A stretch of DNA of 18,888 nt from a virus (taxonomy: Duplodnaviria > Heunggongvirae > Uroviricota > Caudoviricetes): positions 1 to 18,888 of IMG/VR virus record IMGVR_UViG_3300014970_000019. One strand, written 5' to 3'. Below the pieces are notes generated by a model, which saw only the letters and a program-made list of their open reading frames with translations, made no database searches and had not been told where the DNA came from. This document shows positions 1-13,308 of the stretch, one piece after another (positions within the stretch are counted from its first letter, which is position 1; each line of letters starts with the position of its first letter). Made by a program: the position numbers and the translations under genes.

Positions 1-447
1 CACCGCAAAATTGCTACCCTTGCCGGGGTACCGTTGGGATCGATGACCTACTATTTTTCAGGAATTGATGAGTTGTTGCTGGAGGCGTTCAGCAGTTTTA
101 CTGAGATTATGTCCCGGCAATATCAGGCATTTTTTAGCGATGTTAGTGATGCTCAAGGCGCATGCCAGGCTATCACCGATATGATCTACAGCTCACAGGT
201 TGCAACGCCGGATAATATGGAGCTGATGTACCAGCTCTACGCGCTGGCTAGCCGAAAACCGCTATTAAAAACGGTAATGCAAAACTGGATGCAGCGCAGT
301 CAGCAAACGCTCGAACAATGGTTTGAACCCGGAACCGCCCGCGCGCTTGATGCGTTTATTGAGGGGATGACGCTGCATTTTGTCATCGACCGTAAGCCGC
401 TATCGCGCGAGGAGATTTTGAGGATGGTTGAGAGGGTTGCAGGGTAG
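1..447 (+). CDS. TetR/AcrR-family transcriptional regulator, 3' part (start lies upstream of window)
   Basis: Open frame from base 1 to TAG at 445-447. The N-terminal residues in the window ([19 protein letters not shown]) look like the end of a TetR HTH, followed by a typical TetR ligand-binding C-terminal domain. Probably a host gene flanking the prophage. From memory it resembles E. coli RcdA/YbjK, but this is unverified. Confidence 0.8.
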
Positions 448-1957: not shown

Positions 1958-2143
1958 AAAAAATGCCCTCCAATAGAGAGTATTTTTACTGTATGTATAA
2001 CCAGTGTCAATGTATGAAATCTTGCGACCATACATCTCACTGAAGCCATAATGAAGTTGGCTATTTTTTGCTATGTGAGTATGTAACTTTTGCGGTTAGC
2101 CTGCGGCTCATTGTTATATTAGGCGCAGATATAAAAGCAAAGT

Positions 2144-2335
2144 TTATCGTGAGTTTTTAGTACAGATTTTTTTGGATTTACTAATAGTTCCATCATTGCA
2201 AACAAATTTTCCATCGGAGGTACAGTGAGATACACCACCCTTTTTCCCAGAACAAGGATAATTTTTAGCATAGGTAGTTAGTGGGCTTAATAACAAAGAG
2301 CATGATAAAACCACAAAAAATACTTTACCAAGCAT
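2144..2335 (-). CDS. Small secreted Cys-containing protein (63 aa) with N-terminal signal peptide; prophage moron
   Basis: Strong RBS (gggagg 5 nt upstream of ATG). Hydrophobic N-terminus [23 protein letters not shown] followed by a mature region with 5 Cys. Local sequence is AT-rich relative to its neighbours. Confidence 0.55.
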
Positions 2336-2350
2336 AGTTTCCTCCCGGTA

Positions 2351-2920
2351 TTATCTAACATATTTAACTGTTAAACTTATAATTTTTCCAATTATTTCAA
2401 CATCTTCTATCTTGCAGTCGAAGGCTCTGTTTCCACCTTCAACGAAGATTCTTCCACCGGGTAAACGAGTAATGTCGCGGATTGTTATCTCGCCATCAAT
2501 ACTTATTACCCATTTACCATCACGTATATCATCAAATTCTTTATCACAAATAAATTCAGAATTGTTATCTGTGATGACAAAAGGTTTTTTAAACGTAGAG
2601 GGTAGAAATCCCTTATCAAAAATATAAAAACCGTCTTCACGCAAGGCACCATCAGATAATACATATTTAGCAACTTCCATAGTATTTGTATTACCTGAAG
2701 TTTGCTTTGAACCATGTCCAGTTGTGAGCCAATTAAGCGAGGTGCCCGTTTCAAGGGCGCACTGGATTACCCATTCTGCTGGGAATGAGTCACGCATGTA
2801 GCGTGTGGCGAGTGTACTTTTAGAGATTCCTAAATGATCGCACAACGCCTGTCGAGTTTTGAATCCATAAGCTTCTACCATGCGCTCTATAGCGCCTCGT
2901 CCGCCTTTCTCCAAATTCAT
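2351..2920 (-). CDS. cI: CI-type immunity repressor (phage 186 CI-like)
   Basis: About 189 aa, with an N-terminal HTH region (ERMVEAYGFKTRQALCDHLGISKSTLATRYMRD) and a C-terminal oligomerisation-type domain. Divergent from the early operon and adjacent to int, as in 186. Start set at ATG 2920 (RBS ggag 5 nt upstream); the GTG at 2926 is the alternative. Confidence 0.8.
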   Translation of the reverse strand: MNLEKGGRGAIERMVEAYGFKTRQALCDHLGISKSTLATRYMRDSFPAEWVIQCALETGTSLNWLTTGHGSKQTSGNTNTMEVAKYVLSDGALREDGFYIFDKGFLPSTFKKPFVITDNNSEFICDKEFDDIRDGKWVISIDGEITIRDITRLPGGRIFVEGGNRAFDCKIEDVEIIGKIISLTVKYVR

Positions 2921-3267: not shown

Positions 3268-3299
3268 TTCGATTCTGAAATACATCAGAGGCATTGACC

Positions 3300-3809
3300 A
3301 TGTTTGATTACCAAGTTTCCAAACATCCACATTTTGATGAAGCCTGTCGTGCATTCGCACTGCGCCACAACCTGGTGCAACTGGCAGAACGTGCAGGCAT
3401 GAATGTGCAGATTCTGCGGAACAAGCTGAACCCAGCTCAACCTCATTTATTAACCGCACCAGACATCTGGCTGCTTACCGATCTGACTGAGGACTCAACA
3501 CTGGTAGATGGTTTTCTGGCACAGATTCATTGTCTGCCATGTGTTCCGATTAATGAGGTGGCAAAAGAGAAACTGCCGCATTACGTCATGAGTGCAACTG
3601 CAGAGATAGGACGTGTCGCGGCAGGTGCGGTTTCTGGCGATGTAAAAACCAGTGCAGGCCGTCGTGATGCGATCAGCAGCATTAACTCTGTAACACGACT
3701 GATGGCGCTGGCTGCTGTTTCATTGCAGGCCCGTTTACAGGCTAATCCTGCGATGGCGAGTGCAGTTGATACCGTGACTGGCCTCGGTGCTTCATTCGGT
3801 TTGCTGTGA
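3300..3809 (+). CDS. CII-like lysogeny establishment regulator (186 CII-like)
   Basis: 169 aa from ATG 3300, the same length as 186 CII as I recall it. It is the second gene of the early operon. RBS agagg at 3287-3291. Confidence 0.6.
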
Positions 3810-4389: not shown

Positions 4390-4623
4390 ATGCGTAATAT
4401 TGAAACCCTCACGACTAAAACCGGACCGGATGACGCAGGGCTTAATATTTTACTGACAGAGGCTCGTCTGGAAGAACGCCGGGCAAGGGCTGAAGCAATG
4501 GCAGCTCGCCTTGATCGCCTGGCGTGTCATATCACATCCCGCCAGCTAAACCACGTCGAAGCGGCAGAACTGCTGCGTGTGACCGCTGAAGCAATCCAGA
4601 ACGAAGCGCAGGAGATCCACTAA
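4390..4623 (+). CDS. Hypothetical early protein (77 aa)
   Basis: ATG at 4390 with RBS aggag at 4377-4381. Its stop overlaps the start of the next gene (TAATG). Confidence 0.5.
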   Translation: MRNIETLTTKTGPDDAGLNILLTEARLEERRARAEAMAARLDRLACHITSRQLNHVEAAELLRVTAEAIQNEAQEIH

Positions 4624-4850
4624 TGGCTGATGCAATGGATCTCGTACAGCAGCGCGTTGAAGAAGAACGCCAGCGCCATATCCGTGCTGCCCGTGCCAAA
4701 ACACCGGGCGTGTCTCGCGTGCTTTGTATTGAATGTGAAGCGCCAATTCCGCCAGCACGCCGCCGCGCCATTCCAGGAGTGCAGCTTTGCATTACCTGCC
4801 AGGAAATCGCAGAGCTGAAAGGTAAACATTACAACGGAGGTGCTGTATGA
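4623..4850 (+). CDS. TraR/DksA-family C4 zinc-finger protein
   Basis: CIECEAP-x16-CITCQ gives a C-x2-C-x17-C-x2-C spacing at the C-terminus of a 75-aa protein, characteristic of phage TraR/DksA-like proteins in P2-family early regions. Confidence 0.75.
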   Translation: MADAMDLVQQRVEEERQRHIRAARAKTPGVSRVLCIECEAPIPPARRRAIPGVQLCITCQEIAELKGKHYNGGAV

Positions 4851-5704
4851 GCACCATCCTGAAATGGGCGGGAAATAAAACCGCCATTATGTCCGAACTG
4901 AAAAAATACCTTCCTGCTGGCCCGCGACTGGTTGAACCTTTCGCGGGTTCTTGTGCTGTGATGATGGCGACGGATTACCCCAGCTATCTGGTTGCGGATA
5001 TTAATCCTGATTTAATCAACCTCTATAAAAAGATTGCCGCTGATTGCGAAGCGTTTATATCTCGTGCCAGAGTTTTATTTGAGGAAGCAAACAGTGAGCT
5101 GGCTTATTACAACATAAGACAGGAGTTTAATTACTCAACTGAAATTACTGATTTCATGAAGGCGATATATTTCCTGTATCTCAATCGTCACGGTTACCGT
5201 GGTTTATGTCGCTATAACAAGAGCGGGCATTTCAACATTCCCTACGGTAATTATAAAAATCCGTATTTCCCTGAAAAAGAAATTCGCGCATTTGCAGAGA
5301 AAGCCCCGCGGGCAACGTTTATCTGCACGAGCTTTGATGAAACGCTGGCGATGTTGAAGGCGGGGGATGTGGTGTATTGCGATCCGCCTTATGACGGTAC
5401 GTTTTCCGGCTATCACACTGATGGTTTCACTGAAGATGACCAGTATCACCTGGCATCCGTTCTTGAACATCGAGCATCTGAAGGACATCCGGTCATTGTT
5501 TCTAACAGTGACACATCCCTGATCCGTTCGCTGTATCGCAATTTCACTCACTACTACATCAAGGCAAAACGCAGCATCGGCGTGTCGGCTGGCGAGAGTA
5601 AATCTGCAACAGAAATCATTGCTGTTTCCGGGGCGCGCTGCTGGGTGGGATTTGATCCTTCGCGTGGCGTGGATAGTTCTGCTGTGTACGAGGTGCGTGT
5701 ATGA
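4847..5704 (+). CDS. dam: DNA adenine methyltransferase (Dam-like N6-MTase)
   Basis: N-terminal SAM-binding motif ([11 protein letters not shown]) and catalytic DPPY motif (CDPPYDG). About 285 aa. Start overlaps the TraR stop (ATGA). Confidence 0.85.
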
Positions 5705-8115
5705 GTCATGCCGATATGAGCGACTCTAGCGGCTTTAACGAGGCCGCTGCAGCATTTTCATGGAACGGCCCGAAAAAGGCCATAAACCCTTATCTGGACC
5801 CGGCGGAAGTTGCGCCGGTTTCTGCGCTTTCAAACCTGATCACTCTGTATGCTGCCGATAACGAGCAGGAACAGCTGCGCCGCGAGGAATTGAGTGAACA
5901 GGTCTGGGAGCGTTATTTCTTTAATGAATCCCGTGATCCTGTCCAGCGCGAAATGGAGCAGGATAAGCTCATTAGTCGGGCAAAGCTGGCGCATGAGCAG
6001 CAGCGTTTTAACCCGGACATGGTCATTCTGGCGGACGTCAGCGCCCAGCCCACCCACATCAGCAAGCCGCTGATGCAAAGTATCGAATACTTCTGCAGCC
6101 TTGGCAGGCCAAAGGCTTATTCCCGCTATTTGCGTGAGACGATTAAGCCATGTCTGGAGCGACTGGATTGTGTACGCGACAGTCAGCTATCTACTTCTTT
6201 CCGTTTTATGGCAAGCCATCAAGGGCTGGAGGGCCTGCTGATCCTGCCTGAAATGAGTCAGGATCAGGTGAAACGCCTGTCCACCCTGGTAGCTGCGCAT
6301 ATGAGCATGTGTCTTGAGGCCGCTTGTGGTGATTTGTATACCAACGATGACGTAAAGCCAGAAGAAATCCGCAAGACATGGGAAAAGGTGGCAGCGGAAA
6401 CCCTGCGTCTGGATGTTATCCCGCCTGCGTTTGAGAAACTTCGTCGGAAAAGAAACCGCCGCAAACCTGTGCCCTATGAACTCATTCCGGGTTCGCTGGC
6501 ACGTATGCTTTGCGCCGACTGGTGGTATCGAAAATTGTGGAAGATGCGTTGCGAATGGCGGGAAGAGCAGTTGCGTGCTGTCTGTCTGGTCAGCAAAAAA
6601 GCATCTCCCTATGTCAGCTATGAAGCAGTGACGCATAAACGTGAGCAGCGCCGCAAGTCGCTGGAGTTTTTCCGTTCTCATGAACTGGTGAACGAAGACG
6701 GAGACACGCTGGATATGGAAGATGTGGTAAACGCCAGCAGCAGCAACCCGGCACATCGCCGCAATGAGATGATGGCCTGCGTTAAAGGTCTGGAGCTTAT
6801 CGCGGAAATGCGCGGTGACTGCGCCGTTTTCTACACCATCACATGTCCGTCACGTTTCCATTCCACGCTCAATAACGGCAGGCCCAACCCGACCTGGACA
6901 AATGCGACGGTAAGACAAAGCAGCGATTATCTGGTCGGCATGTTTGCTGCATTTCGTAAGGCGATGCACAAAACCGGGTTGCGCTGGTATGGCGTACGGG
7001 TGGCTGAGCCGCACCATGACGGTACTGTGCACTGGCATCTCATGTGTTTCATGCGCAAAAAAGACCGCCGCGCCATTACTGCATTGTTGCGTAAGTTTGC
7101 CATCCGTGAAGACCGCGAGGAGCTGGGCAATAACACGGGCCCACGCTTTAAGTCTGAGCTGATAAACCCACGCAAAGGAACGCCGACAAGCTACATCGCA
7201 AAATACATCAGTAAGAACATTGACGGGCGTGGTCTGGCTAACGAGATCAGCAAGGAAACGGGTAAATCCCTGCGTGATAACGCCGAATACGTTAATGCCT
7301 GGGCGTCTCTGCATCGTGTTCAGCAGTTCCGCTTCTTTGGTATTCCGGGGCGCCAGGCTTACCGTGAACTTCGCTTGCTGGCTGGTCAGGCGGCAAGGCA
7401 ACAGGGTGACAAAAAAGCAGGTGCGCCGGTACTGGATAACCCGCGCCTTGATGCCATCCTGGCTGCTGCTGATGCTGGTTGTTTTGCCACCTACATCATG
7501 AAGCAGGGCGGCGTACTGGTTCCCCGCAAATATCACCTCATCAGAACCGCTTATGAAATCAACGAAGAGCCAACCGCCTATGGCGATCACGGTATTCGTA
7601 TTTATGGCATCTGGTCACCCATTGCAGAGGGCAAGATCTGCACTCATGCAGTGAAGTGGAAAATGGTTCGTAAGGCCGTTGACGTTCAGGAGGCGGCAGC
7701 CGACCAGGGCGCTTGCGCCCCTTGGACTCGTGGCAATAACTGTCCCCTTGCTGAAAATTTGAACCAACAGGAGAAAGATAAATCAGCTGATGGGGACACC
7801 AGAACGGATATTACCCGCATGGATGACAAGGCGTTGCACGATTATCTGCACAGTATGAGCAAAAAAGAGCGCCGGGAACTGGCAGCAAGGTTACGCCTGG
7901 TTAAGCCGAAACGGCGTAAAGACTACAAACAGCGAATTACAGATCATCAGCGACAGCAGCTCGTCTATGAACTGAAGTCCAGAGGATTTGATGGCAGCGA
8001 GAAAGAGGTCGATTTACTCCTTCGCGGTGGCAGTATTCCGTCAGGAGCAGGCCTGCGTATCTTCTATCGGAACCAGCGTTTGCAGGAAGATGATAAGTGG
8101 CGAAACCTGTATTAA
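5701..8115 (+). CDS. A: Rolling-circle replication initiation endonuclease (P2 gpA-like)
   Basis: 804-aa protein with an HxH metal-binding motif ([10 protein letters not shown]) and downstream Tyr residues (YIAKYISK), typical of P2 A / HUH endonucleases. Start overlaps the dam stop (ATGA). Confidence 0.9.
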
Positions 8116-8207
8116 TTACGCGGGTTAACAATTCGTGCTCTTAATAATACCAGGCATATCAGGCTGATGAACGTAAAAAAACGTTTTACATCAGTAAGAT
8201 TATTATA

Positions 8208-8227
8208 TACTGTAAATATAAACAGTG
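8208..8227. promoter_or_regulatory. LexA (SOS) box TACTGTAAATATAAACAGTG
   Basis: CTGT-N8-ACAG palindrome with an AT-rich centre (CTGT at 8210-8213, ACAG at 8222-8225), about 40 bp upstream of the 8268 ORF and the DinI-like gene. It overlaps AT-rich -10-like sequence. Confidence 0.6.
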
Positions 8228-8267
8228 ATTATATATACAGTATTGCTTTGGTGTCATAGGAGGAAAG

Positions 8268-8456
8268 ATGCAGGACTATTTTTTGGAGTCTTTGAAGCTC
8301 CAGCGCATTGATTTTTTTCTTAAGCTTGTAGCGGCTAGTGAGTGTAGTGATGAAGAGAAGGGGCTGGCTCTGCAGTGGGTTTCTGAACTGACAGATGAAC
8401 TCATGGCAAAAATCAGAACCCACGAATACAACCGCTCAATGGATGTCATCAGCTGA
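8268..8456 (+). CDS. Small hypothetical protein (62 aa), first gene of the SOS-controlled module (possible Tum N-terminal-like antirepressor part)
   Basis: Strong RBS aggagg at 8258-8263 with ATG at 8268. Lies downstream of the LexA box, and its stop overlaps the RBS of the DinI-like gene. Confidence 0.5.
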   Translation: MQDYFLESLKLQRIDFFLKLVAASECSDEEKGLALQWVSELTDELMAKIRTHEYNRSMDVIS

Positions 8457-8466
8457 GGTGACTTTT

Positions 8467-8700
8467 ATGCGCATTGAAATAATGATCGATAAAGAGCAGA
8501 AGATTAGCCAGTCTACACTGGACGCCCTTGAATCCGAGCTTTACCGCAATCTGCGCCCCCTGTATCCCAAAACGGTAATTCGTATTCGCAAAGGTAGCTC
8601 TAACGGTGTGGAACTGACCGGACTGCAACTGGACGAAGAAAGAAAACAAGTGATGAAAATTATGCAGAAGGTGTGGGAAGACGACAGCTGGCTGCATTAA
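8467..8700 (+). CDS. DinI-family protein (phage Tum C-terminal/DinI-like)
   Basis: 77 aa starting MRIEIMIDKEQKIS and ending ...MQKVWEDDSWLH, which resembles the DinI pattern (MRIEV...; acidic C-terminus with W). RBS gaggtg upstream. Start trimmed from the track ORF 8395-8700. Confidence 0.8.
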   Translation: MRIEIMIDKEQKISQSTLDALESELYRNLRPLYPKTVIRIRKGSSNGVELTGLQLDEERKQVMKIMQKVWEDDSWLH

Positions 8701-8835
8701 GAAACGTTGCTGGCGTCTGAACTTGTTTCTGGCGTCAGCAAGGTTGAACAACGAGCCCTTGCGAGGCGTTAGCTCTGTAGTGCATGTCTATGCCGCATGA
8801 GATCGCATGATCGTTTGAGGATCGTTTTTGCTAAG

Positions 8836-8859
8836 GCCCGCCAGAACTGGCGGGCTTTT
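8836..8859 (+). terminator. Rho-independent terminator
   Basis: Perfect GC-rich stem gcccgccag / ctggcgggc (8836-8844 and 8847-8855) with a 2-nt loop, followed by TTTT (8856-8859). Confidence 0.7.
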
Positions 8860-8904
8860 GCGTAGATCATGCACCTGCATGAAAACCACTACATAAAGCG
8901 GGCA

Positions 8905-8923
8905 GGCGTGGCGGGGATACGAG
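8905..8923. other. cos-like sequence (candidate cohesive-end site or remnant)
   Basis: ggcgtggcggggatacgag. The first 13 nt match the 186/P2 cohesive-end 19-mer as I recall it (GGCG[T/A]GGCGGGGAAAGCA[T/C]). It sits between the tum-like module and the portal-proximal region, where cos is expected. Confidence 0.35.
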
Positions 8924-9003
8924 CGCGCGCTGACATCGTTAAGTATTGACATATCAGATGTTTAAATAGGAAAATTACCAAAATCCAGAAAAAAGAAAAG
9001 AAT

Positions 9004-10152
9004 ATGAAGAAGTTAACTGCGAGACAAAGAGAGATTGACGTAAAACGCTCGATAAAGTTACGACAAGGACGTGCTAAAGTTAGAAAAAAAGGTAAATCAT
9101 TTCACTATAATGTTGAATGGCGTAAGGCTAACTATTGGATTGAAGAACAATCAAAAAATGGATTAGATGTACAATTTGTAAGTAAAAAAAAGAAAGGGTT
9201 AATTCTAACTTTACCTTCTGAAATGAATTTTTCTACACACTACGATGTTACTGTTCAGCATATTAATGCGATTCGAATGTTATCAGAGAGAAAAGGATTG
9301 CCTAATGCAGGTTATCAATTAGCATCTGTTAATTTTTGTAATTTGAAGAAAACATCGACATCTGCAGCTCTTGTGTTAACTGCAGAGTTATCTAAATGGG
9401 ATGATGCGATTAGGCAGAGGTTGACTCCAAAAATAGACGGTTGGGATAAAAATGTTCTACGTAATTTCTATGAATTGGGGTTCTTTGATTTATTCAAAAA
9501 AAGCAGGGATATAAAATTAAATTTTAATGATGAGTATTCAAAAATAAAAGGTAAGCGATTTGTAAAATATCTTAAAGGAAAGTGTGGGGAAATTAAGAAA
9601 ACAAAAGTATTAAAAGAGGAGATTATTAAATTAGTTGGTGAGTCTATTGAAAAATGGACTTTCTTACATGGGGGCCTAAGTGAGGCTATTACCAATGTTT
9701 CTCATCATGCATATCCTTCTGATTGCGGATATAAAGAATATGATAAGAACTGGTATCTAACAGGATCTTATCATTTAGAAAGTAAGGAATTGAAGATAGT
9801 TTTTTATGATCAGGGTGTTGGTATCCCTAAAACTTTACCTGCATCAAAAGTTTGGGAAAAGGCATTAAATGTATTAGCATCAATTCCTGTATTGGAGCGA
9901 TATCGTGATGAAGCACTCTTGAAAGCTGCGGTAGAGTTGGATAGGACAAGTACAGAAGAGGGAGATCGTGGTAAAGGCCTACAGGATCTACTTGAGTTTA
10001 TTAAACAAAGAGAAAATGGTTATTTATCAATCATGAGCCTTAAGGGACTTTATAAACACTCAATGAATCAAGGTAATACAAAAATAAAAACTAAGAGTTT
10101 TGCATCCCCAATCTATGGTACACTAATAACTTGGAGTGTATCTCTTGATTGA
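9004..10152 (+). CDS. Cargo gene 1: protein with C-terminal GHKL (HATPase_c) RsbW/SpoIIAB-like kinase/ATPase domain and Lys-rich N-terminal domain of unknown function
   Basis: 382-aa ORF in a strongly AT-rich island. N-box-like LSEAITNVSHHAY (about aa 226-238), G1-box-like YDQGVGIP (about aa 268-275) and G2-box-like GDRGKGLQDL (about aa 320-329), in the order and spacing of GHKL ATPases. Family assignment is by motif, not by search. Confidence 0.65.
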   Translation: MKKLTARQREIDVKRSIKLRQGRAKVRKKGKSFHYNVEWRKANYWIEEQSKNGLDVQFVSKKKKGLILTLPSEMNFSTHYDVTVQHINAIRMLSERKGLPNAGYQLASVNFCNLKKTSTSAALVLTAELSKWDDAIRQRLTPKIDGWDKNVLRNFYELGFFDLFKKSRDIKLNFNDEYSKIKGKRFVKYLKGKCGEIKKTKVLKEEIIKLVGESIEKWTFLHGGLSEAITNVSHHAYPSDCGYKEYDKNWYLTGSYHLESKELKIVFYDQGVGIPKTLPASKVWEKALNVLASIPVLERYRDEALLKAAVELDRTSTEEGDRGKGLQDLLEFIKQRENGYLSIMSLKGLYKHSMNQGNTKIKTKSFASPIYGTLITWSVSLD

Positions 10153-10166
10153 GATGGAGGTTTAAT

Positions 10167-10580
10167 ATGAAAAATCTAGAAATTAATATAGGGAAAGAGT
10201 TTTCTTCTACTCCTTCAGGACGTTTCTATTCTGATATGACAGATAGCAGCGGCGAACAGTTTAGAGAGGAGCTTTTATGGCCTCGCTTACAGTTGCTTAA
10301 AGAAAAGCAAAAGATCGACATTATTTTGGATGATGACGTTGAAGGTTATGGTTCTTCTTTCCTCGTTGAAGGTTTTGCCGGTATAGTAAAATATGGATAT
10401 ATGGATAAACAACAACTATTAAGTAAACTTGAGTTAATTCAGAGAGATCCTGATTTTGCTTTGTTTAAGAGAAAAATAATACAATATATTAACGAGGCAG
10501 TGTTTGATTCAAAGGTTTATGAAAGTACCAAACCTATTTATTTGTCTAAGTTGTTGACGCAAAAAACACGTAAGGAGTAA
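10167..10580 (+). CDS. Cargo gene 2: small STAS-like / DUF4325-like protein (putative partner of gene 1)
   Basis: 137 aa from ATG 10167, with RBS ggagg at 10156-10160 lying inside the end of gene 1 (translational coupling). The motif IDIILDDDVEGYGSSFLVEGFAGIV resembles STAS/DUF4325 cores that pair with HATPase proteins. The track ORF starts at a TTG at 10149. Confidence 0.6.
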   Translation: MKNLEINIGKEFSSTPSGRFYSDMTDSSGEQFREELLWPRLQLLKEKQKIDIILDDDVEGYGSSFLVEGFAGIVKYGYMDKQQLLSKLELIQRDPDFALFKRKIIQYINEAVFDSKVYESTKPIYLSKLLTQKTRKE

Positions 10581-10585
10581 AGCAA

Positions 10586-11230
10586 ATGGAGCCCAATTAT
10601 AATTATCATTATATGATGAGTAATAATGAGCTTTATTTTAGGGCGGGTTATGATGCTCAGCAATATGGGGTTGTTTTTTCTCATTCGGCTGTTGATAATG
10701 TCGACTTGATACATATTATCAATGGTGGTTTTTCATCTGTTGCAGAAGCTATTAGTAACTCAGGAAACACCACACTTTCTGATGGGATTATACTTGCATT
10801 AGCAGGTGCGTTGAGTGCTTTTTTCTTTAATTTGATTCAAAAAGGAATTGACGCTAAGGCAAAACGTCTCACCAAATCTGGTGAAGCAATGTTATCCTTG
10901 ATAAATGAATTGGAGGATATTGCAGTACGTTATTGGGTCAGAGGGCACGATTCATCTTGTGCTGATAATGAAAGCAATATTTGTGATGAGATTAATATCA
11001 AAGCCATGTTAATGACCTTGGATAAAAATATTAGGTTTATGGTTGATAATTTACCGTTAAAAAACAAGTCTTTAAATAAAAATAAGCTGGAGAAATTTTC
11101 TTCTGATATTTATGATTTGGCATCTGGTGAAGATTTCGAAGCAGAGGTTAGGCCTCCCAATAAAACAAAGGCCTTTGCTATATCGAAAAAATGTAGTGAA
11201 GCAAAAGCCATCATTCTTGGTTTGATTTAA
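10586..11230 (+). CDS. Cargo gene 3: hypothetical protein (214 aa) with a hydrophobic putative transmembrane segment
   Basis: Strong RBS aaggag at 10572-10577 with ATG at 10586. Hydrophobic stretch GIILALAGALSAFFFNLI around aa 67-84. AT-rich codon usage like genes 1 and 2. No family recognised. Confidence 0.6.
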   Translation: MEPNYNYHYMMSNNELYFRAGYDAQQYGVVFSHSAVDNVDLIHIINGGFSSVAEAISNSGNTTLSDGIILALAGALSAFFFNLIQKGIDAKAKRLTKSGEAMLSLINELEDIAVRYWVRGHDSSCADNESNICDEINIKAMLMTLDKNIRFMVDNLPLKNKSLNKNKLEKFSSDIYDLASGEDFEAEVRPPNKTKAFAISKKCSEAKAIILGLI

Positions 11231-12255
11231 AAACGGTAATCCTCAAAGTTAATTACTGTTATGTTTAACCAAATATTTAGCTCTGTTATTCTTTTCTGAA
11301 GAATTTCTAATTCATTTTTTACGAATACTTTGGCAGCTTTCTCCACATCCCCAAACCCCCCAACATTATTAGGCATTATCCCCATCATTTGCGGCGGCAC
11401 TCGGTGTGCTGCCATCATGTCATCGCGGCTGACATTTTTGATATTCAGAAATTCATCCTTCGCCGCGACTTCTGACAGAGGAATGATCTGAAGCCCGTCC
11501 TTTTTGCCGTTAGGCGAGTACATAAACAGATTGCGGAAGTTGCCAGGGCCTTTGGCGCTTTTCATCGCATTGCGGAGGTTGTTCACATCCTCCTGGTTTT
11601 GCGCGGCATCGGTCATGTACATGATAAAGCCCGCATGACTGCCGTTAATGTAATACTTGCGACGGAACAGCGTGGCGGACTCGTTGAGCAGGGCAGACGG
11701 AATGGCAGAAAGATAACCGGGCAGGCCGTAGATCTCCTGATTAATATCCGGTTCCATTAGGTGAAAAATGCTGCCTTTCGTGAACTGATACGGTTGCGTG
11801 GTCATGCCGTATTGCACAAACCAGTAGGTATCCAGATCTAATCCGCGTCGGGTGTATTTTGCCAGGGCAGGTTCAAGGGCGATCACTTCACCGAAGCGGT
11901 TCGTGCGTTTCTCTAGGTAGGCGTTACCAAATACCAGATAGTCCTGCACAAAACGTGAAAACGCCTGCTGGCTGAGCAGCGGATGAGGGATGTAGGTGCT
12001 GGTCAGTATGTTGCACTTTACGGCAATCGGTGAGCTGTGGTGCACGGCGGCGCGAAAGGTTCGCGCCAGCCCGTCGAAACTCACTGGTGGCTCATACCAG
12101 CGGTCCATCTGTACGCATTCCACATAGTCCAGTAATTCGCGGCGGTCCAGAACAGGAACGGGATCACCGAAGCTGAATGCTTCGGCTGAAGTTTGGTTTT
12201 TATGCAGGATCTGATTCGTCGCCGCAGCGCGGTTTTTCTTACTCTTTCCCATCAA
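11227..12255 (-). CDS. Q: Portal protein (P2 gpQ-like)
   Basis: 342 aa, close to the size of P2 Q. It follows the terminase fragment in operon order P then Q on the minus strand. Its stop overlaps the convergent stop of cargo gene 3. Confidence 0.8.
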   Translation of the reverse strand: MMGKSKKNRAAATNQILHKNQTSAEAFSFGDPVPVLDRRELLDYVECVQMDRWYEPPVSFDGLARTFRAAVHHSSPIAVKCNILTSTYIPHPLLSQQAFSRFVQDYLVFGNAYLEKRTNRFGEVIALEPALAKYTRRGLDLDTYWFVQYGMTTQPYQFTKGSIFHLMEPDINQEIYGLPGYLSAIPSALLNESATLFRRKYYINGSHAGFIMYMTDAAQNQEDVNNLRNAMKSAKGPGNFRNLFMYSPNGKKDGLQIIPLSEVAAKDEFLNIKNVSRDDMMAAHRVPPQMMGIMPNNVGGFGDVEKAAKVFVKNELEILQKRITELNIWLNITVINFEDYRF

Positions 12256-12911
12256 AAAATCTCCACAATATTGCTGGTATTGGCGGATTCGCCCTGCAGC
12301 GGTTCGTTAAACAGTGCGTGCATTGTTGCCCAGGCCAGATCGGCATGGCTGGCTTCTTCGCTGCGGCTGGCTTCATAGGTTGGGCGGTTGCCGCTGGCGG
12401 TGGTGGCGCGACGGATTGCCATAAATGACTGCGCTATGTCGGTGTGTCCGGCGTCAAACTCCAGACGACGGTGACTGATAATGTCGTAGGCCTTGAGTAC
12501 CAGGGCGTTTTTAACGTTGGGGTTGTAGACAAACTCCCGGACGGCTGGAAAAAACGCTTTCACGTTCTCGTAAACCCCGTGGCCGACACCTGTCGAGTCG
12601 ATGCCGATGTAGGTCACGTTGTACTGCTCGGTCAGTTTTTTGATGGCGTCAGCCTGGGCGCGGAAGTCCATCCCGCGCCACTGGTGACGCTCAAGAATGC
12701 GGAACTTACCACCCGGCACGGCTGGCGGTGCCACCACCACGCATCCGGCACTGTCGCCGTTCTGCGTACCTTTTGCCGGGTCATAACCGATCCACACTTC
12801 GCGCCAGCCAAACGGGCGCAGGGCCAGAGCATGAAAGTCGGTCCAGACTTCCCAACTGTCCACCATGCACGCCTGCAGCTCGCTGAGCGGAAACCAGAAC
12901 GACGTCACCAC
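12252..12911 (-). pseudogene. P: Terminase large subunit (gpP-like), C-terminal fragment only; 5'-truncated
   Basis: Immediately upstream of Q with an overlapping stop/start (ATGA), but only about 219-245 codons are open, against roughly 590 aa for P2 P. Identity as the terminase nuclease domain rests on operon position and the IGIDSTGVGHG motif. There is no credible start, and the frame runs into FI coding sequence on the opposite strand. Confidence 0.7.
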
Positions 12912-13308
12912 GCTTGTGCGTAAAGACGGTTTCCGCTTCTGGGGTTCCCGCTGCCTGAGTGATGACCCGCTCTTTGCCTTCGAAAACTACACCCGCACGG
13001 CGCAGGTGCTGATGGACACGATGGCAGAAGCACACATGTGGGCGGTGGATAAACCGCTTAACCCGTCGCTGGCCCGCGACATTATCGAAGGTATCCGCGC
13101 CAAAATGCGCAGCCTGGTCAGTCAGGGCTATCTCATTGGTGGTGATTGCTGGCTGGATGAGTCGGTGAACGACAAAGACACGCTGAAAGCCGGAAAACTC
13201 ACCATCGACTACGACTACACGCCAGTGCCGCCACTTGAAAACCTGATGCTGCGTCAGCGCATCACCGATCAGTACTTGGTGAATTTCGCCAGCCAGGTCA
13301 GCGCGTAA
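12835..13308 (+). pseudogene. FI: Tail sheath protein (gpFI-like), C-terminal fragment only; 5'-truncated
   Basis: Open frame from an in-frame stop at 12832-12834 to TAA at 13306-13308, at most about 157 codons, against about 396 aa for P2 FI. It sits immediately upstream of FII. The C-terminus ...[27 protein letters not shown] is sheath-like. Confidence 0.7.

What the first reader, a model, noticed from the sequence alone, without database searches (positions are those of the whole stretch)
9004..11230. AT-rich three-gene cargo cassette between the replication/tum region and the portal gene: candidate novel anti-phage or abortive-infection system
Three co-directional, tightly packed genes (stop/RBS overlap between genes 1 and 2, a 5-nt gap before gene 3) have markedly lower GC and different codon usage than the flanking P2-family genes, so they look horizontally acquired. 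They sit in the cos-proximal variable region where P2-family phages carry accessory anti-phage genes (old and tin in P2). The gene content (GHKL kinase/ATPase-like protein, STAS-like small protein, putative membrane protein) is not a standard phage function. It resembles a partner-switching module (RsbW/RsbV-like) coupled to a possible membrane effector.
Basis: partly seen in the sequence, partly recalled or inferred. Interest (0 to 1): 0.85.

Follow-up and report, generated by a model that had tools for sequence, protein, structure and literature searches.

The report
Kinase–STAS–membrane protein cassette in prophage
A defective P2/186-type prophage carries a conserved three-gene cassette (a serine-kinase-like ATPase, a small STAS-like partner and a membrane-anchored helical protein) that looks like an untested membrane-effector variant of the recently described VapKSC kinase-controlled anti-phage toxin system.

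Summary
Three tightly packed + strand genes (9004-10152, 10167-10580, 10586-11230) have 34% GC against 51% in the rest of the window. They lie between the P2-type cos site and the portal gene of a 186-like prophage.

- Gene 1 has a C-terminal GHKL domain with invariant N, G1, G2 and G3 boxes. Its best structural matches are the anti-sigma serine kinases SpoIIAB, RsbW and UsfX.
- Gene 2 belongs to Pfam DUF4325 (STAS-like) and has an invariant YGSSFL motif.
- Gene 3 is a single-pass membrane protein with a cytoplasmic four-helix bundle.

Gene 1 is followed directly by gene 2 in all 24 genomic and 29 viral loci retrieved. A gene 3 homologue or a small hydrophobic ORF follows in nearly all of them. 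The loci include P2/186 hotspots, other prophages, islands and isolated islets.

The cassette matches no PADLOC model and is not Rousset's '3HP' system. The closest known system is VapKSC/CapKS (EMBO J 2026), in which a GHKL kinase phosphorylates a DUF4325 protein to release a PIN toxin. Here the PIN toxin is replaced by a membrane protein, and the kinase is only distantly related.

Best reading: a kinase-gated membrane-effector defence or abortive-infection module. No experiment has tested this function. I rate it a new variant of a known kind.

The parts
8779..8970 (.). P2-type cos region, forming the left boundary of the cassette
   Evidence: Window 8900-8970 matches the annotated 'putative cos site, homologous to the cos of P2' of phage Cartapus. 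Window 8779-8932 is conserved in Pantoea, Yersinia, E. coli and Klebsiella relatives.
8946..8975 (+). Sigma-70-like promoter candidate (TTGACA-18-GAAAAT), about 30 nt upstream of g1
   Evidence: Consensus scan, 10/12 matches. This is weak evidence: such sites were not enriched over shuffled sequence.
9004..10152 (+). g1: 382-aa kinase-like protein, made of a basic N-terminal helical arm (residues 1-51), a conserved N-domain of unknown fold (about 52-180) and a C-terminal anti-sigma-type GHKL Ser/Thr kinase domain (about 181-382)
9352..9405 (+). Most conserved block of the g1 N-domain (residues 117-134, consensus ISTSAALVLTAELSKWDD; the window reads T at residue 117), with invariant S118
   Evidence: Invariant and near-invariant columns in 53 sequences and in the N-domain alignment. 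Function unknown. A STAS-like reading was not confirmed.
9682..9717 (+). GHKL N box (E227-A-I-T-N231-V-S-H-H235-A-Y-P238)
   Evidence: E227, A228, N231, H235, A236, Y237 and P238 are invariant in alignments A1 and A3.
9808..9828 (+). GHKL G1 box (D269-Q-G271-V-G273-I-P275)
   Evidence: D269, G271, I274 and P275 are invariant in A1 and A3 (Q270 in A3 only); G273 is conserved in at least 90% of sequences.
9967..9987 (+). GHKL G2 box (R322-G-K-G325-L-Q-D328)
   Evidence: R322, G323, K324, G325 and D328 are invariant in A1 and A3.
10117..10134 (+). GHKL G3-like motif (G372-T-L-I-T-W377)
   Evidence: G372, T373, I375 and W377 are invariant in A1 and A3.
10167..10580 (+). g2: 137-aa DUF4325 (STAS-like) protein with a conserved C-terminal tail
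   Evidence: The window protein scores E 2e-4. All 26 family members hit PF14213, best E 3e-11. NCBI names identical proteins 'STAS-like/DUF4325 domain-containing protein'. VapS hits the same Pfam family at 2.7e-17.
10347..10382 (+). Y61-G-S63-S64-F-L-V-E68-G-F-A-G72 motif of g2, the candidate phospho-acceptor serines
   Evidence: Y61, G62, S63, S64, F65, L66, E68, F70 and G72 are invariant in 26 sequences. Local hhalign registers pair S63 with VapS S48 and S64 with CapS S54, the proven phospho-sites, but at negligible probability.
10586..11230 (+). g3: 214-aa single-pass inner-membrane protein with a fast-evolving, variable N-terminal segment and a conserved C-terminal domain
   Evidence: The family has 327 representatives at 50% identity. 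No Pfam, PADLOC or PDB sequence match.
10781..10837 (+). Transmembrane helix of g3 (residues 66-84)
   Evidence: Kyte-Doolittle maximum 1.88 at residue 66. 93% of 109 relatives have a hydrophobic window of KD >= 1.6 and only 2% have a second one. K+R count is 0.57 before the helix and 3.6 after it, so the C-terminus is cytoplasmic.
10841..11227 (+). Cytoplasmic four-helix bundle of g3 (invariant W117 and F184; near-invariant Y116, E135, G181, E185)
11227..12255 (-). Portal gene Q, the right boundary. Its stop codon overlaps the g3 stop (convergent)
   Evidence: Pfam Phage_portal; sequence read directly.

Best explanation
The cassette is a self-contained, horizontally mobile three-gene module, most likely an anti-phage or abortive-infection system wired like VapKSC.

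Shown here: g1 has an anti-sigma-factor-type GHKL serine/threonine kinase domain with an intact ATP site. g2 is a DUF4325 STAS-like protein with two invariant serines. g3 is anchored in the inner membrane by one helix, with a four-helix bundle facing the cytoplasm. The three genes are inherited together.

Inferred by analogy with VapKSC: in uninfected cells g2 binds the cytoplasmic bundle of g3 and keeps it inert. An infection cue is sensed by the N-terminal half of g1; in CapK/VapK that cue is single-stranded DNA. The cue switches the kinase on, g1 phosphorylates g2 on S63 or S64, g2 lets go, and free g3 oligomerises or opens its amphipathic bundle to damage the membrane. This stops growth of the infected cell and so stops phage production.
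For: - Location: the gpA-Q variable region of a P2/186-type prophage, a documented reservoir of anti-phage systems (PMC9122126).
- Hotspot use in relatives: the same or related trios occupy this hotspot in Escherichia, Yersinia, Pantoea and Klebsiella/Raoultella prophages. In one Yersinia prophage it lies next to a PvuRts1I-like restriction enzyme.
- Unit inheritance: g1 is directly followed by g2 in 24/24 genomic and 29/29 viral loci. A g3 homologue is detected in 21/24 genomic loci, and an adjacent ORF with a hydrophobic helix stands in that position in all of them. At least 20 of the 29 viral loci also have a detectable g3 homologue.
- Mobility: a divergent trio lies beside the repressor of Marinobacter phage AS1, and a matching architecture is annotated in Francisella phage KIRK. 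The trio also occurs as a lone three-gene islet between housekeeping genes.
- Kinase: invariant N, G1, G2 and G3 boxes. The best structural matches are SpoIIAB, RsbW and UsfX, ahead of all histidine kinases. The kinase domain resembles VapK (hhalign E 7e-5, Smith-Waterman z 7.4).
- g2: same Pfam family as VapS, with an invariant SS motif that lands on the proven phospho-serines of VapS and CapS in local alignment.
- g3: one membrane helix with a cytoplasmic bundle. It evolves much faster than g1 and g2 (18-33% identity against 45-65%), as is common for effectors and interfaces under conflict.
- Neighbours of 23 chromosomal loci include AAA_21/AriA/PtuA-like ATPases, AbiLi, ZorD, a type I specificity subunit, integrases and transposases.
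- The trio stays intact in two independently decayed prophages (this window and L075).
- Precedent: VapKSC gives about 2-log protection, and that protection requires the kinase, the serine and the toxin (PMC13373217).
Against: - There is no experimental phenotype for this family.
- None of the three proteins matches a PADLOC v2 model.
- g1 is only marginally similar to VapK and barely similar to CapK.
- The g1 N-domain shows no detectable similarity to the STAS domains of VapK or CapK, to SpoIIAA, to DUF4325 or to any Pfam family. The sensor and its signal may therefore differ.
- The g2 family profile does not find VapS (9Z7O) in the PDB. The link runs only through the Pfam model.
- The g3 fold is a generic four-helix bundle with no diagnostic toxin feature, and its toxicity is unknown.
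- Enrichment of defence genes among the neighbours is modest and was not tested against a background. ABC-type ATPases can give spurious AriA/mad3 hits.
- Several loci sit among housekeeping genes.
Confidence: 0.55

Rival explanations
1. Classical partner-switch wiring with the kinase as the hub. g1 itself holds the cytoplasmic bundle of g3 (as SpoIIAB holds sigma-F) or is held at the membrane by it. Unphosphorylated g2 competes for g1. The output is either release of g3 or release of an active kinase that phosphorylates phage or host proteins. The module still serves defence, but g2 is an antagonist of the kinase, not an antitoxin.
For: The best structural matches of g1 are exactly the partner-switching kinases SpoIIAB, RsbW, UsfX and SiaB. 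g1 carries a large, extremely conserved extra N-domain that could be a protein-binding surface. g3 has no recognisable toxin fold.
Against: No PP2C phosphatase or sigma factor is present in any locus examined, so there is no obvious way to reset the switch. In the only characterised DUF4325 system, the STAS protein binds the effector, not the kinase.
Confidence: 0.17
2. An addiction or stress-response module with no dedicated anti-phage role. It could be a kinase-controlled toxin-antitoxin-like cassette that stabilises the mobile element carrying it, or one that responds to DNA damage or envelope stress in general.
For: Isolated three-gene islets sit between housekeeping genes. The cassette is retained in decaying prophages. 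The authors of VapKSC themselves stress that the line between stress response and immunity is blurred.
Against: The cassette is repeatedly placed in the P2/186 hotspot and beside phage repressors, where cargo usually acts against other phages (PMC9122126). Known defence genes occur among its neighbours.
Confidence: 0.15
3. Superinfection exclusion at the membrane. g3 directly blocks genome entry or lysis functions of incoming phages, and g1/g2 only tune its activity.
For: g3 is an inner-membrane protein with a highly variable periplasmic N-terminal segment of 0 to about 105 residues. The cassette is prophage-borne and has its own promoter candidate.
Against: The conserved part of g3 is cytoplasmic and the periplasmic part is dispensable in many relatives. 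An ATP-dependent kinase plus a STAS partner is an elaborate regulator for a constitutive entry block.
Confidence: 0.08
4. A CapK/CapS-type transcriptional controller of neighbouring genes.
For: It uses the same kind of kinase + STAS pair as CapKS.
Against: g2 has no wHTH or other DNA-binding domain. No conserved downstream operon exists: g3 is followed by a convergent portal gene here and by unrelated genes elsewhere.
Confidence: 0.03

Closest known systems
VapKSC (VapK kinase, VapS STAS antitoxin, VapC PIN toxin), Chambers et al., EMBO J 2026 (PMC13373217)
   Same: It is a three-gene operon in the order kinase, small STAS protein, effector. The kinase has an anti-sigma-type GHKL domain, and g1 resembles VapK there (hhalign E 7e-5, SW z 7.4). 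The middle protein belongs to Pfam DUF4325 in both and has an absolutely conserved serine at the start of the second helix plus a conserved C-terminal tail. Both are found on mobile elements and near other defence genes.
   Different: The effector is a single-pass membrane protein with a four-helix bundle, not a PIN nuclease. g1 is 86 residues longer, and its N-terminal half shows no detectable similarity to VapK's STAS domain. The g2 profile does not retrieve VapS. The activating signal and the phenotype are unknown here.
CapK/CapS, the DNA-damage-activated kinase and STAS-wHTH repressor upstream of CBASS, Bub and Thoeris operons (same paper)
   Same: It is a pair of a GHKL kinase and a STAS substrate with an 'SSF' phospho-site motif. 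CapS has D-S-S54-F and g2 has G-S63-S64-F (low-probability alignment).
   Different: g2 lacks the wHTH domain, and g1 lacks the HTH and shows only weak similarity to CapK. The cassette carries its own third gene and does not sit upstream of a separate immune operon.
Classical partner-switching modules (SpoIIAB/SpoIIAA, RsbW/RsbV, UsfX/RsfB, SiaB/SiaC)
   Different: No sigma factor and no PP2C phosphatase are present. g2 matches DUF4325, not the canonical STAS family. The module is on mobile elements, and its third partner is a membrane protein.
Other P2/P4 hotspot systems with membrane effectors (gop-beta-cII, 2TM+1TM+TIR of phage AC1, RT-nitrilase+1TM, hydrolase+3TM) and the 'hp+hp+hp' system (Rst_3HP) of Rousset et al. 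2022
   Same: They occupy the same genomic niche (the gpA-Q hotspot of P2-like phages) and use small membrane proteins as presumed suicide effectors.
   Different: None of the tested systems in Table S2 of that paper has these proteins. The '3HP' proteins printed there are plainly different sequences. There are no PADLOC hits.

Membership tests
VapKSC | Kinase with an anti-sigma-type GHKL domain and an intact ATP site | tested here: met
VapKSC | STAS domain N-terminal to the kinase domain in the same protein (the proposed ssDNA-binding groove) | tested here: inconclusive
   The AF2 model gives a beta-beta-alpha-beta-alpha core with invariant S118 at a helix start. However, hhalign, Pfam scans of 21 N-domains and pairwise alignment with shuffling found no similarity to VapK, CapK, SpoIIAA or DUF4325.
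VapKSC | Adjacent small DUF4325/STAS protein with an absolutely conserved Ser/Thr | tested here: met
   26/26 family members hit PF14213 and VapS hits it at 2.7e-17. S63 and S64 are invariant.
VapKSC | Third gene encodes a VapC-like PIN nuclease toxin | tested here: not met
   g3 has no PIN hit or any other Pfam hit. It is a TM helix plus a four-helix bundle.
VapKSC | Kinase activated by ssDNA, phosphorylation releases the effector, and the system protects against phage | not testable with these tools
   Needs biochemistry and plaque assays.
Classical partner-switching module (RsbW/RsbV type) | GHKL serine kinase of the anti-sigma clade | tested here: met
Classical partner-switching module (RsbW/RsbV type) | Sigma factor (or equivalent) target and a PP2C phosphatase encoded with the pair | tested here: not met
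   Neither appears in the window or in any of the annotated relatives.
P2/186 hotspot anti-phage cargo (Rousset et al. 2022) | Variable, compositionally foreign genes between replication gene A and portal gene Q | tested here: met
   gpA 5701-8115, cos about 8779-8970, cassette, then Q 11227-12255. GC is 0.34 against 0.51. Different cargo occupies the same place in relatives.
P2/186 hotspot anti-phage cargo (Rousset et al. 2022) | Demonstrated anti-phage activity | not testable with these tools
   Not among the systems cloned in Tables S2A/B of PMC9122126.
Rst_3HP ('hp+hp+hp') | Homology to the three E. coli E1114 proteins | tested here: not met
   By reading, the protein sequences printed in Table S2A are plainly unrelated to g1-g3; no alignment was run. 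There are also no PADLOC hits.
Any PADLOC-DB v2.0.0 system | HMM match of any component | tested here: not met
   Zero hits at E <= 1 for the window trio and for the E. coli 54% variant.

The most novel reading that the evidence does not exclude
g3 may be the sensor, not the toxin. In this reading it is a membrane-anchored reporter of phage genome injection or envelope perturbation, and its cytoplasmic bundle holds the g1 kinase (or g2) in check. Disturbance at the membrane would trigger a phosphatase-less partner switch that frees an active serine kinase to phosphorylate phage or host targets. That would make this a membrane-tethered, kinase-output immune sensor with a new N-terminal sensing domain unrelated to CapK/VapK.
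Probability: 0.12. Interest if true: 0.85.

Novelty: new variant of a known kind. Interest (0 to 1): 0.62.

Why it matters
If confirmed, this would extend the very recently described principle of a kinase-phosphorylated STAS antitoxin (VapKSC) from a nuclease toxin to a membrane effector. It would show that the GHKL kinase + DUF4325 pair is a portable switch that different effectors plug into.

The family is widespread. There are more than 440 g1 clusters at 90% identity and 327 g3 representatives at 50% identity, across gamma-, beta- and delta-proteobacteria and their prophages. The 54%-identical variant in E. coli and other Enterobacteriaceae appears on hundreds of contigs. PADLOC v2 does not detect the family, so it would fill part of the 'no known defence' fraction of P2-like hotspots.

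The g1 N-domain is unlike that of CapK/VapK, so the system may sense a different infection cue. The system is small, native to E. coli and directly testable.

Tried and rejected
- **Rst_3HP.** I checked whether this is the 'three hypothetical proteins' system of Rousset et al. It is not; the printed sequences differ.
- **Known defence libraries and literature.** PADLOC gave no hits. The DefensePredictor paper and the 2026 P2/P4 hotspot paper do not mention such a trio. Searches for protein accessions in the literature found nothing.
- **Direct profile links.** Links between g2 and VapS/CapS and between g1 and CapK were not significant. The g2-VapS link rests on shared membership of Pfam DUF4325.
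- **Word-indexed protein search for g3.** Both with the single sequence and with the 25-sequence alignment, it returned only close relatives. The exhaustive HMM search was needed.
- **A possible effector swap in viral locus L053.** The third ORF turned out to be an integrase next to a truncated g1, so this is a degraded copy.
- **E. coli RefSeq complete genomes and GenBank phages.** These held only the cos match, not the cassette. The cassette is nevertheless present in other Escherichia assemblies.
Full report
**1. The observation**

The window encodes the left half of a P2-family prophage of the 186 type:
- integrase (926-2035, -);
- 186-type CI repressor (2351-2926, -);
- CII/CP76 (3294-3809);
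- DUF5347, DUF2732, a DksA/TraR zinc finger and a D12 Dam methylase (4847-5704);
- replication protein A (5701-8115);
- a DinI-like Tum protein (8395-8700).

A block homologous to the P2 cos region follows at about 8779-8970.
- g1 is 9004-10152 (382 aa).
- g2 is 10167-10580 (137 aa). The mechanical ORF list starts it at TTG 10149, but GGAGG at 10156-10160 and ATG 10167 make the shorter form much more likely.
- g3 is 10586-11230 (214 aa).

The g1 stop is followed at once by the g2 ribosome-binding site. g3 starts 5 nt after the g2 stop. The g3 stop overlaps the stop of the convergent portal gene Q (11227-12255, -).

The cassette has 33.7% GC (GC3 24-30%) against 51% in the rest of the window (GC3 about 58% in gpA, Q and T). 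It is the lowest-GC 2.2-kb stretch in the window. The only correction is that the cassette lies between cos and Q, not on the old/tin side of cos.

**2. What the three proteins are**

*g1.* Taken alone, g1 gives only sub-threshold hits: HATPase_c_2 at E 0.049 and NCBIfam RsbW/SpoIIAB at E about 0.02. Its family is large, however, with 441 clusters at E <= 1e-3, and the listed members are 50-82% identical over the full length.

In alignments of 15 and 53 members, every Bergerat-fold motif is invariant:
- N box: E227-A-x-x-N231-x-x-x-H235-A-Y-P;
- G1 box: D269-x-G271-x-G273-I-P;
- G2 box: R322-G-K-G325-L-x-D328;
- G3-like motif: G372-T-L-I-x-W377.

Residues 1-51 form a very basic helical arm. 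Residues from about 52 to 180 form a separate domain that contains the most conserved stretch of the whole protein (ISTSAALVLTAELSKWDD, invariant S118). I could not assign this domain (section 5).

*g2.* The window protein scores 21.5 bits on Pfam DUF4325, 'STAS-like domain of unknown function', whose cut-off is 23. All 26 orthologues collected from related loci hit that family, best E 3e-11. NCBI names identical Escherichia proteins 'STAS-like/DUF4325 domain-containing protein'. The alignment shows an invariant Y61-G-S63-S64-F-L-x-E-x-F-x-G72 motif after a beta-strand (KIDIILDD), and a conserved C-terminal tail.

*g3.* g3 has no Pfam, NCBIfam, PADLOC or PDB sequence match. Kyte-Doolittle analysis and an exhaustive HMM search (327 representatives at 50% identity among 1.84 billion) define the family:
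- one transmembrane helix (93% of 109 members have a hydrophobic window of KD >= 1.6; 2% have a second one);
- a variable N-terminal segment of 0 to about 105 residues;
- a C-terminal part of constant length (median 132 residues);
- 0.57 K+R in the 15 residues before the helix against 3.6 after it, which places the C-terminal domain in the cytoplasm.

**3. The three genes are a unit, and a mobile one**

A scan of one genome per species found 24 loci with a g1 relative. The hosts include Pantoea, Raoultella, Nitrosomonas, Gallionella, Methylococcaceae, Thiotrichaceae, Desulfocapsaceae, Desulfuromusa, Colwellia, Shewanella, Vibrio, Alteromonas, Pseudomonas, Marinobacter and Aliidiomarina.
- In all 24, g2 follows directly.
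- In 21, tblastn detects a g3 homologue.
- In every case an adjacent ORF of 150-283 aa with one hydrophobic helix occupies the third position.

Identity to the window proteins is 42-65% for g1, 47-66% for g2 and only 18-33% for most g3 (51% in Pantoea).

In IMG/VR, 29 of 29 g1 relatives, down to 25% identity, are followed by a g2 homologue, and at least 20 are followed by a detectable g3 homologue. The one clear exception, L053, is a truncated g1 next to an integrase.

The contexts are varied:
- the gpA-Q hotspot of P2- or 186-like prophages in E. coli (a 54%-identical variant on 568 contigs), Escherichia spp., Yersinia enterocolitica, Pantoea and Raoultella;
- a lambdoid Klebsiella prophage, which acquired a 2.9-kb block comprising the P2-type cos, the trio and the last ~430 nt of a P2 portal gene;
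- a position beside the repressor of Marinobacter phage AS1, where the third protein is a TM protein of 159 aa;
- a matching architecture (HP similar to the AS1 protein, DUF4325, TM protein) annotated in Francisella phage KIRK (PMC7924643);
- an integrase- and methylase-bearing island in Methylotenera;
- bare three-gene islets between housekeeping genes in Cycloclasticus and Zobellella.

Among 132 neighbouring ORFs of 23 chromosomal loci, the commonest Pfam family is AAA_21 (5 ORFs). PADLOC models hit AriA/ATPase-Toprim/PtuA-like ATPases, AbiLi (3), ZorD (E = 0) and a type I specificity subunit. Integrases, P2 genes, Tn3 and IS21 are also present. In one Yersinia prophage a PvuRts1I-like restriction enzyme sits immediately upstream.

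I did not compute a background rate, and ABC-type ATPases can inflate the AriA/mad3 counts. I regard this as moderate support for a defence neighbourhood.

**4. How it most likely works**

The literature search turned up the decisive comparison: Chambers et al., EMBO J 2026 (PMC13373217).

[quoted passage not shown] It phosphorylates Ser54 of CapS (STAS-wHTH), which releases that repressor from immune-operon promoters.

- VapS binds and inhibits VapC.
- Ser48 lies in the VapS-VapC interface.
- The S48E mutant no longer binds or neutralises VapC.
- The operon gives about 2-log protection against phage Bas42, and this protection needs the toxin, the serine and the kinase's putative ssDNA site.

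I took the protein sequences from the paper's appendix and tested them against the cassette:
- VapS is a strong DUF4325 member (2.7e-17, 62.7 bits), which is the same Pfam family as g2.
- The g1 family profile aligns to the VapK kinase domain with E 7e-5 over 149 columns. Smith-Waterman gives z 7.4 against shuffles.
- Local hhalign alignments put g2 S63 opposite VapS S48 and g2 S64 opposite CapS S54. The statistical support is negligible.

The cassette therefore has the first two components of VapKSC in the same order, with the same tight coupling. A membrane protein stands where VapC would be. An earlier catalogue had already noted a PIN clade 'transcriptionally coupled to DUF4325 genes' (PMC5499597).

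My preferred model, with the status of each step marked:
- g1 is an ATP-binding anti-sigma-type kinase (shown by motifs and fold).
- g2 is its STAS-like substrate, phosphorylated on S63 or S64 (inferred from invariance and analogy).
- Unphosphorylated g2 holds the cytoplasmic bundle of g3 inactive (inferred).
- An infection cue sensed by the g1 N-terminal half activates the kinase (inferred; the cue is unknown).
- Released g3 compromises the inner membrane and aborts the infection (inferred).

My confidence that this is a defence or abortive-infection module of this general design is 0.55. My confidence in the specific g2-g3 antitoxin wiring is nearer 0.35-0.4.

**5. Where it departs from the known systems, and what failed**

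- g3 is not a PIN protein, so the cassette fails a defining feature of VapKSC and should not be filed as a member.
- g1 is only remotely related to VapK (HMM score 8.4 bits) and barely related to CapK.
- The g1 N-domain has a predicted beta-beta-alpha-beta-alpha core with an invariant serine at a helix start, and an LGFFD motif that also occurs in CapK. But hhalign, Pfam scans of 21 N-domains and shuffled-control alignments all failed to link it to any STAS domain. The sensing domain may therefore be different.
- The g2 profile does not find the VapS structure 9Z7O, which is present in the PDB copy.
- No phosphatase or sigma factor accompanies the trio in any locus examined, so it is not a classical partner-switching module either.
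- Nothing here demonstrates phage resistance.

**6. Rivals**

- A kinase-centred partner switch, in which g1 binds g3 or is itself the effector: 0.17.
- A general stress or addiction module: 0.15.
- Membrane-level superinfection exclusion: 0.08.
- A CapKS-like transcriptional controller: 0.03. This is disfavoured because g2 has no DNA-binding domain and there is no conserved downstream operon.

**7. Novelty and verdict**

The cassette matches no PADLOC v2 model. It is not the 3HP system or any other system cloned by Rousset et al.. It is not mentioned in the DefensePredictor paper or the 2026 P2/P4 hotspot paper.

The principle of a GHKL kinase, a DUF4325 STAS protein and an effector is known since 2026. 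This is therefore a new variant of a known kind: a new effector class, a divergent kinase lineage and possibly a new sensor domain.

The family is widespread, occurs in E. coli prophage hotspots and can be tested directly. Interest: 0.62.

Noticed in passing
window 12252-13308: The prophage is defective. The terminase gene P keeps only its C-terminal RNaseH-like domain (12252-12911, -). It abuts, and slightly overlaps, a fragment encoding only the C-terminal domain of the tail sheath (12865-13308, +). Tube FII, chaperone E, tape measure T, U and D follow. About 15 kb is missing (the N-terminus of P, the capsid, lysis, baseplate and fibre genes, and most of FI), yet the cassette is intact.
   Followed up: partly
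L075 (Escherichia assembly GCA_012186785.1), 4420-8414: This is a second, independent decay variant. The identical trio is followed directly by tail X, holin and lysozyme genes, with portal, terminase and capsid genes missing. Complete 186-like prophages with the same trio also exist (L069, L073, L074, L076).
   Followed up: partly
L006/L007/L008 7973-10830 (Klebsiella lambdoid prophages): A 2.9-kb block, 74% identical to window 8779-11656, lies inside a lambda-like prophage between replication and Q-antiterminator genes. It comprises the P2-type cos region, the whole trio and the last ~430 nt of a P2 portal gene. The cassette evidently moved together with scraps of its P2 hotspot.
   Followed up: partly
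L001 8001-10320 against window 8779-11230: The 54%-identical trio of E. coli and other Enterobacteriaceae lies between gpA and cos (the old/tin position). The window's trio, and those of Pantoea and Yersinia, lie between cos and Q. The hotspot thus has two cargo slots, one on each side of cos. Some relatives fill both: L070-L072 carry extra ORFs of 64+262 or 71+203 aa before cos, and L038 carries a PvuRts1I-like enzyme.
   Followed up: partly
L041 5001-6150 (IMGVR_UViG_2917865565_000005): This viral contig is about 98% identical to the window, but its g1 is split into 112-aa and 269-aa ORFs by a 1-nt length difference. That is either a frameshift or a sequencing error. Its g2 and g3 are intact.
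   Followed up: partly
window 11227-11230: The stop codons of g3 (+) and portal gene Q (-) overlap, and no terminator-like structure lies between the convergent genes.
   Followed up: no
window 2000-2600: A second low-GC stretch (about 34%) lies between the integrase and the 186-type CI repressor. It contains small - strand ORFs (2119-2271 and 2144-2335) and the 3' part of cI. It may be another piece of foreign cargo.
   Followed up: no
window 4847-5704: A D12-class N6-adenine (Dam-type) DNA methyltransferase is encoded in the early operon just upstream of gpA. It could serve as anti-restriction or self-marking.
   Followed up: no
window 34-447: A TetR-family C-terminal domain ORF lies at the left edge, outside the integrase. 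It is presumably the host gene flanking the attachment site.
   Followed up: no
and 32/111: The cassette is absent from the 5,426 RefSeq complete E. coli genomes searched by megablast. Identical g2 and g3 proteins nevertheless occur on 153 contigs of Escherichia assemblies, including chromosomes CP076575.1 and CP091506.1. The reason for the discrepancy (species label or RefSeq exclusion) was not resolved.
   Followed up: no
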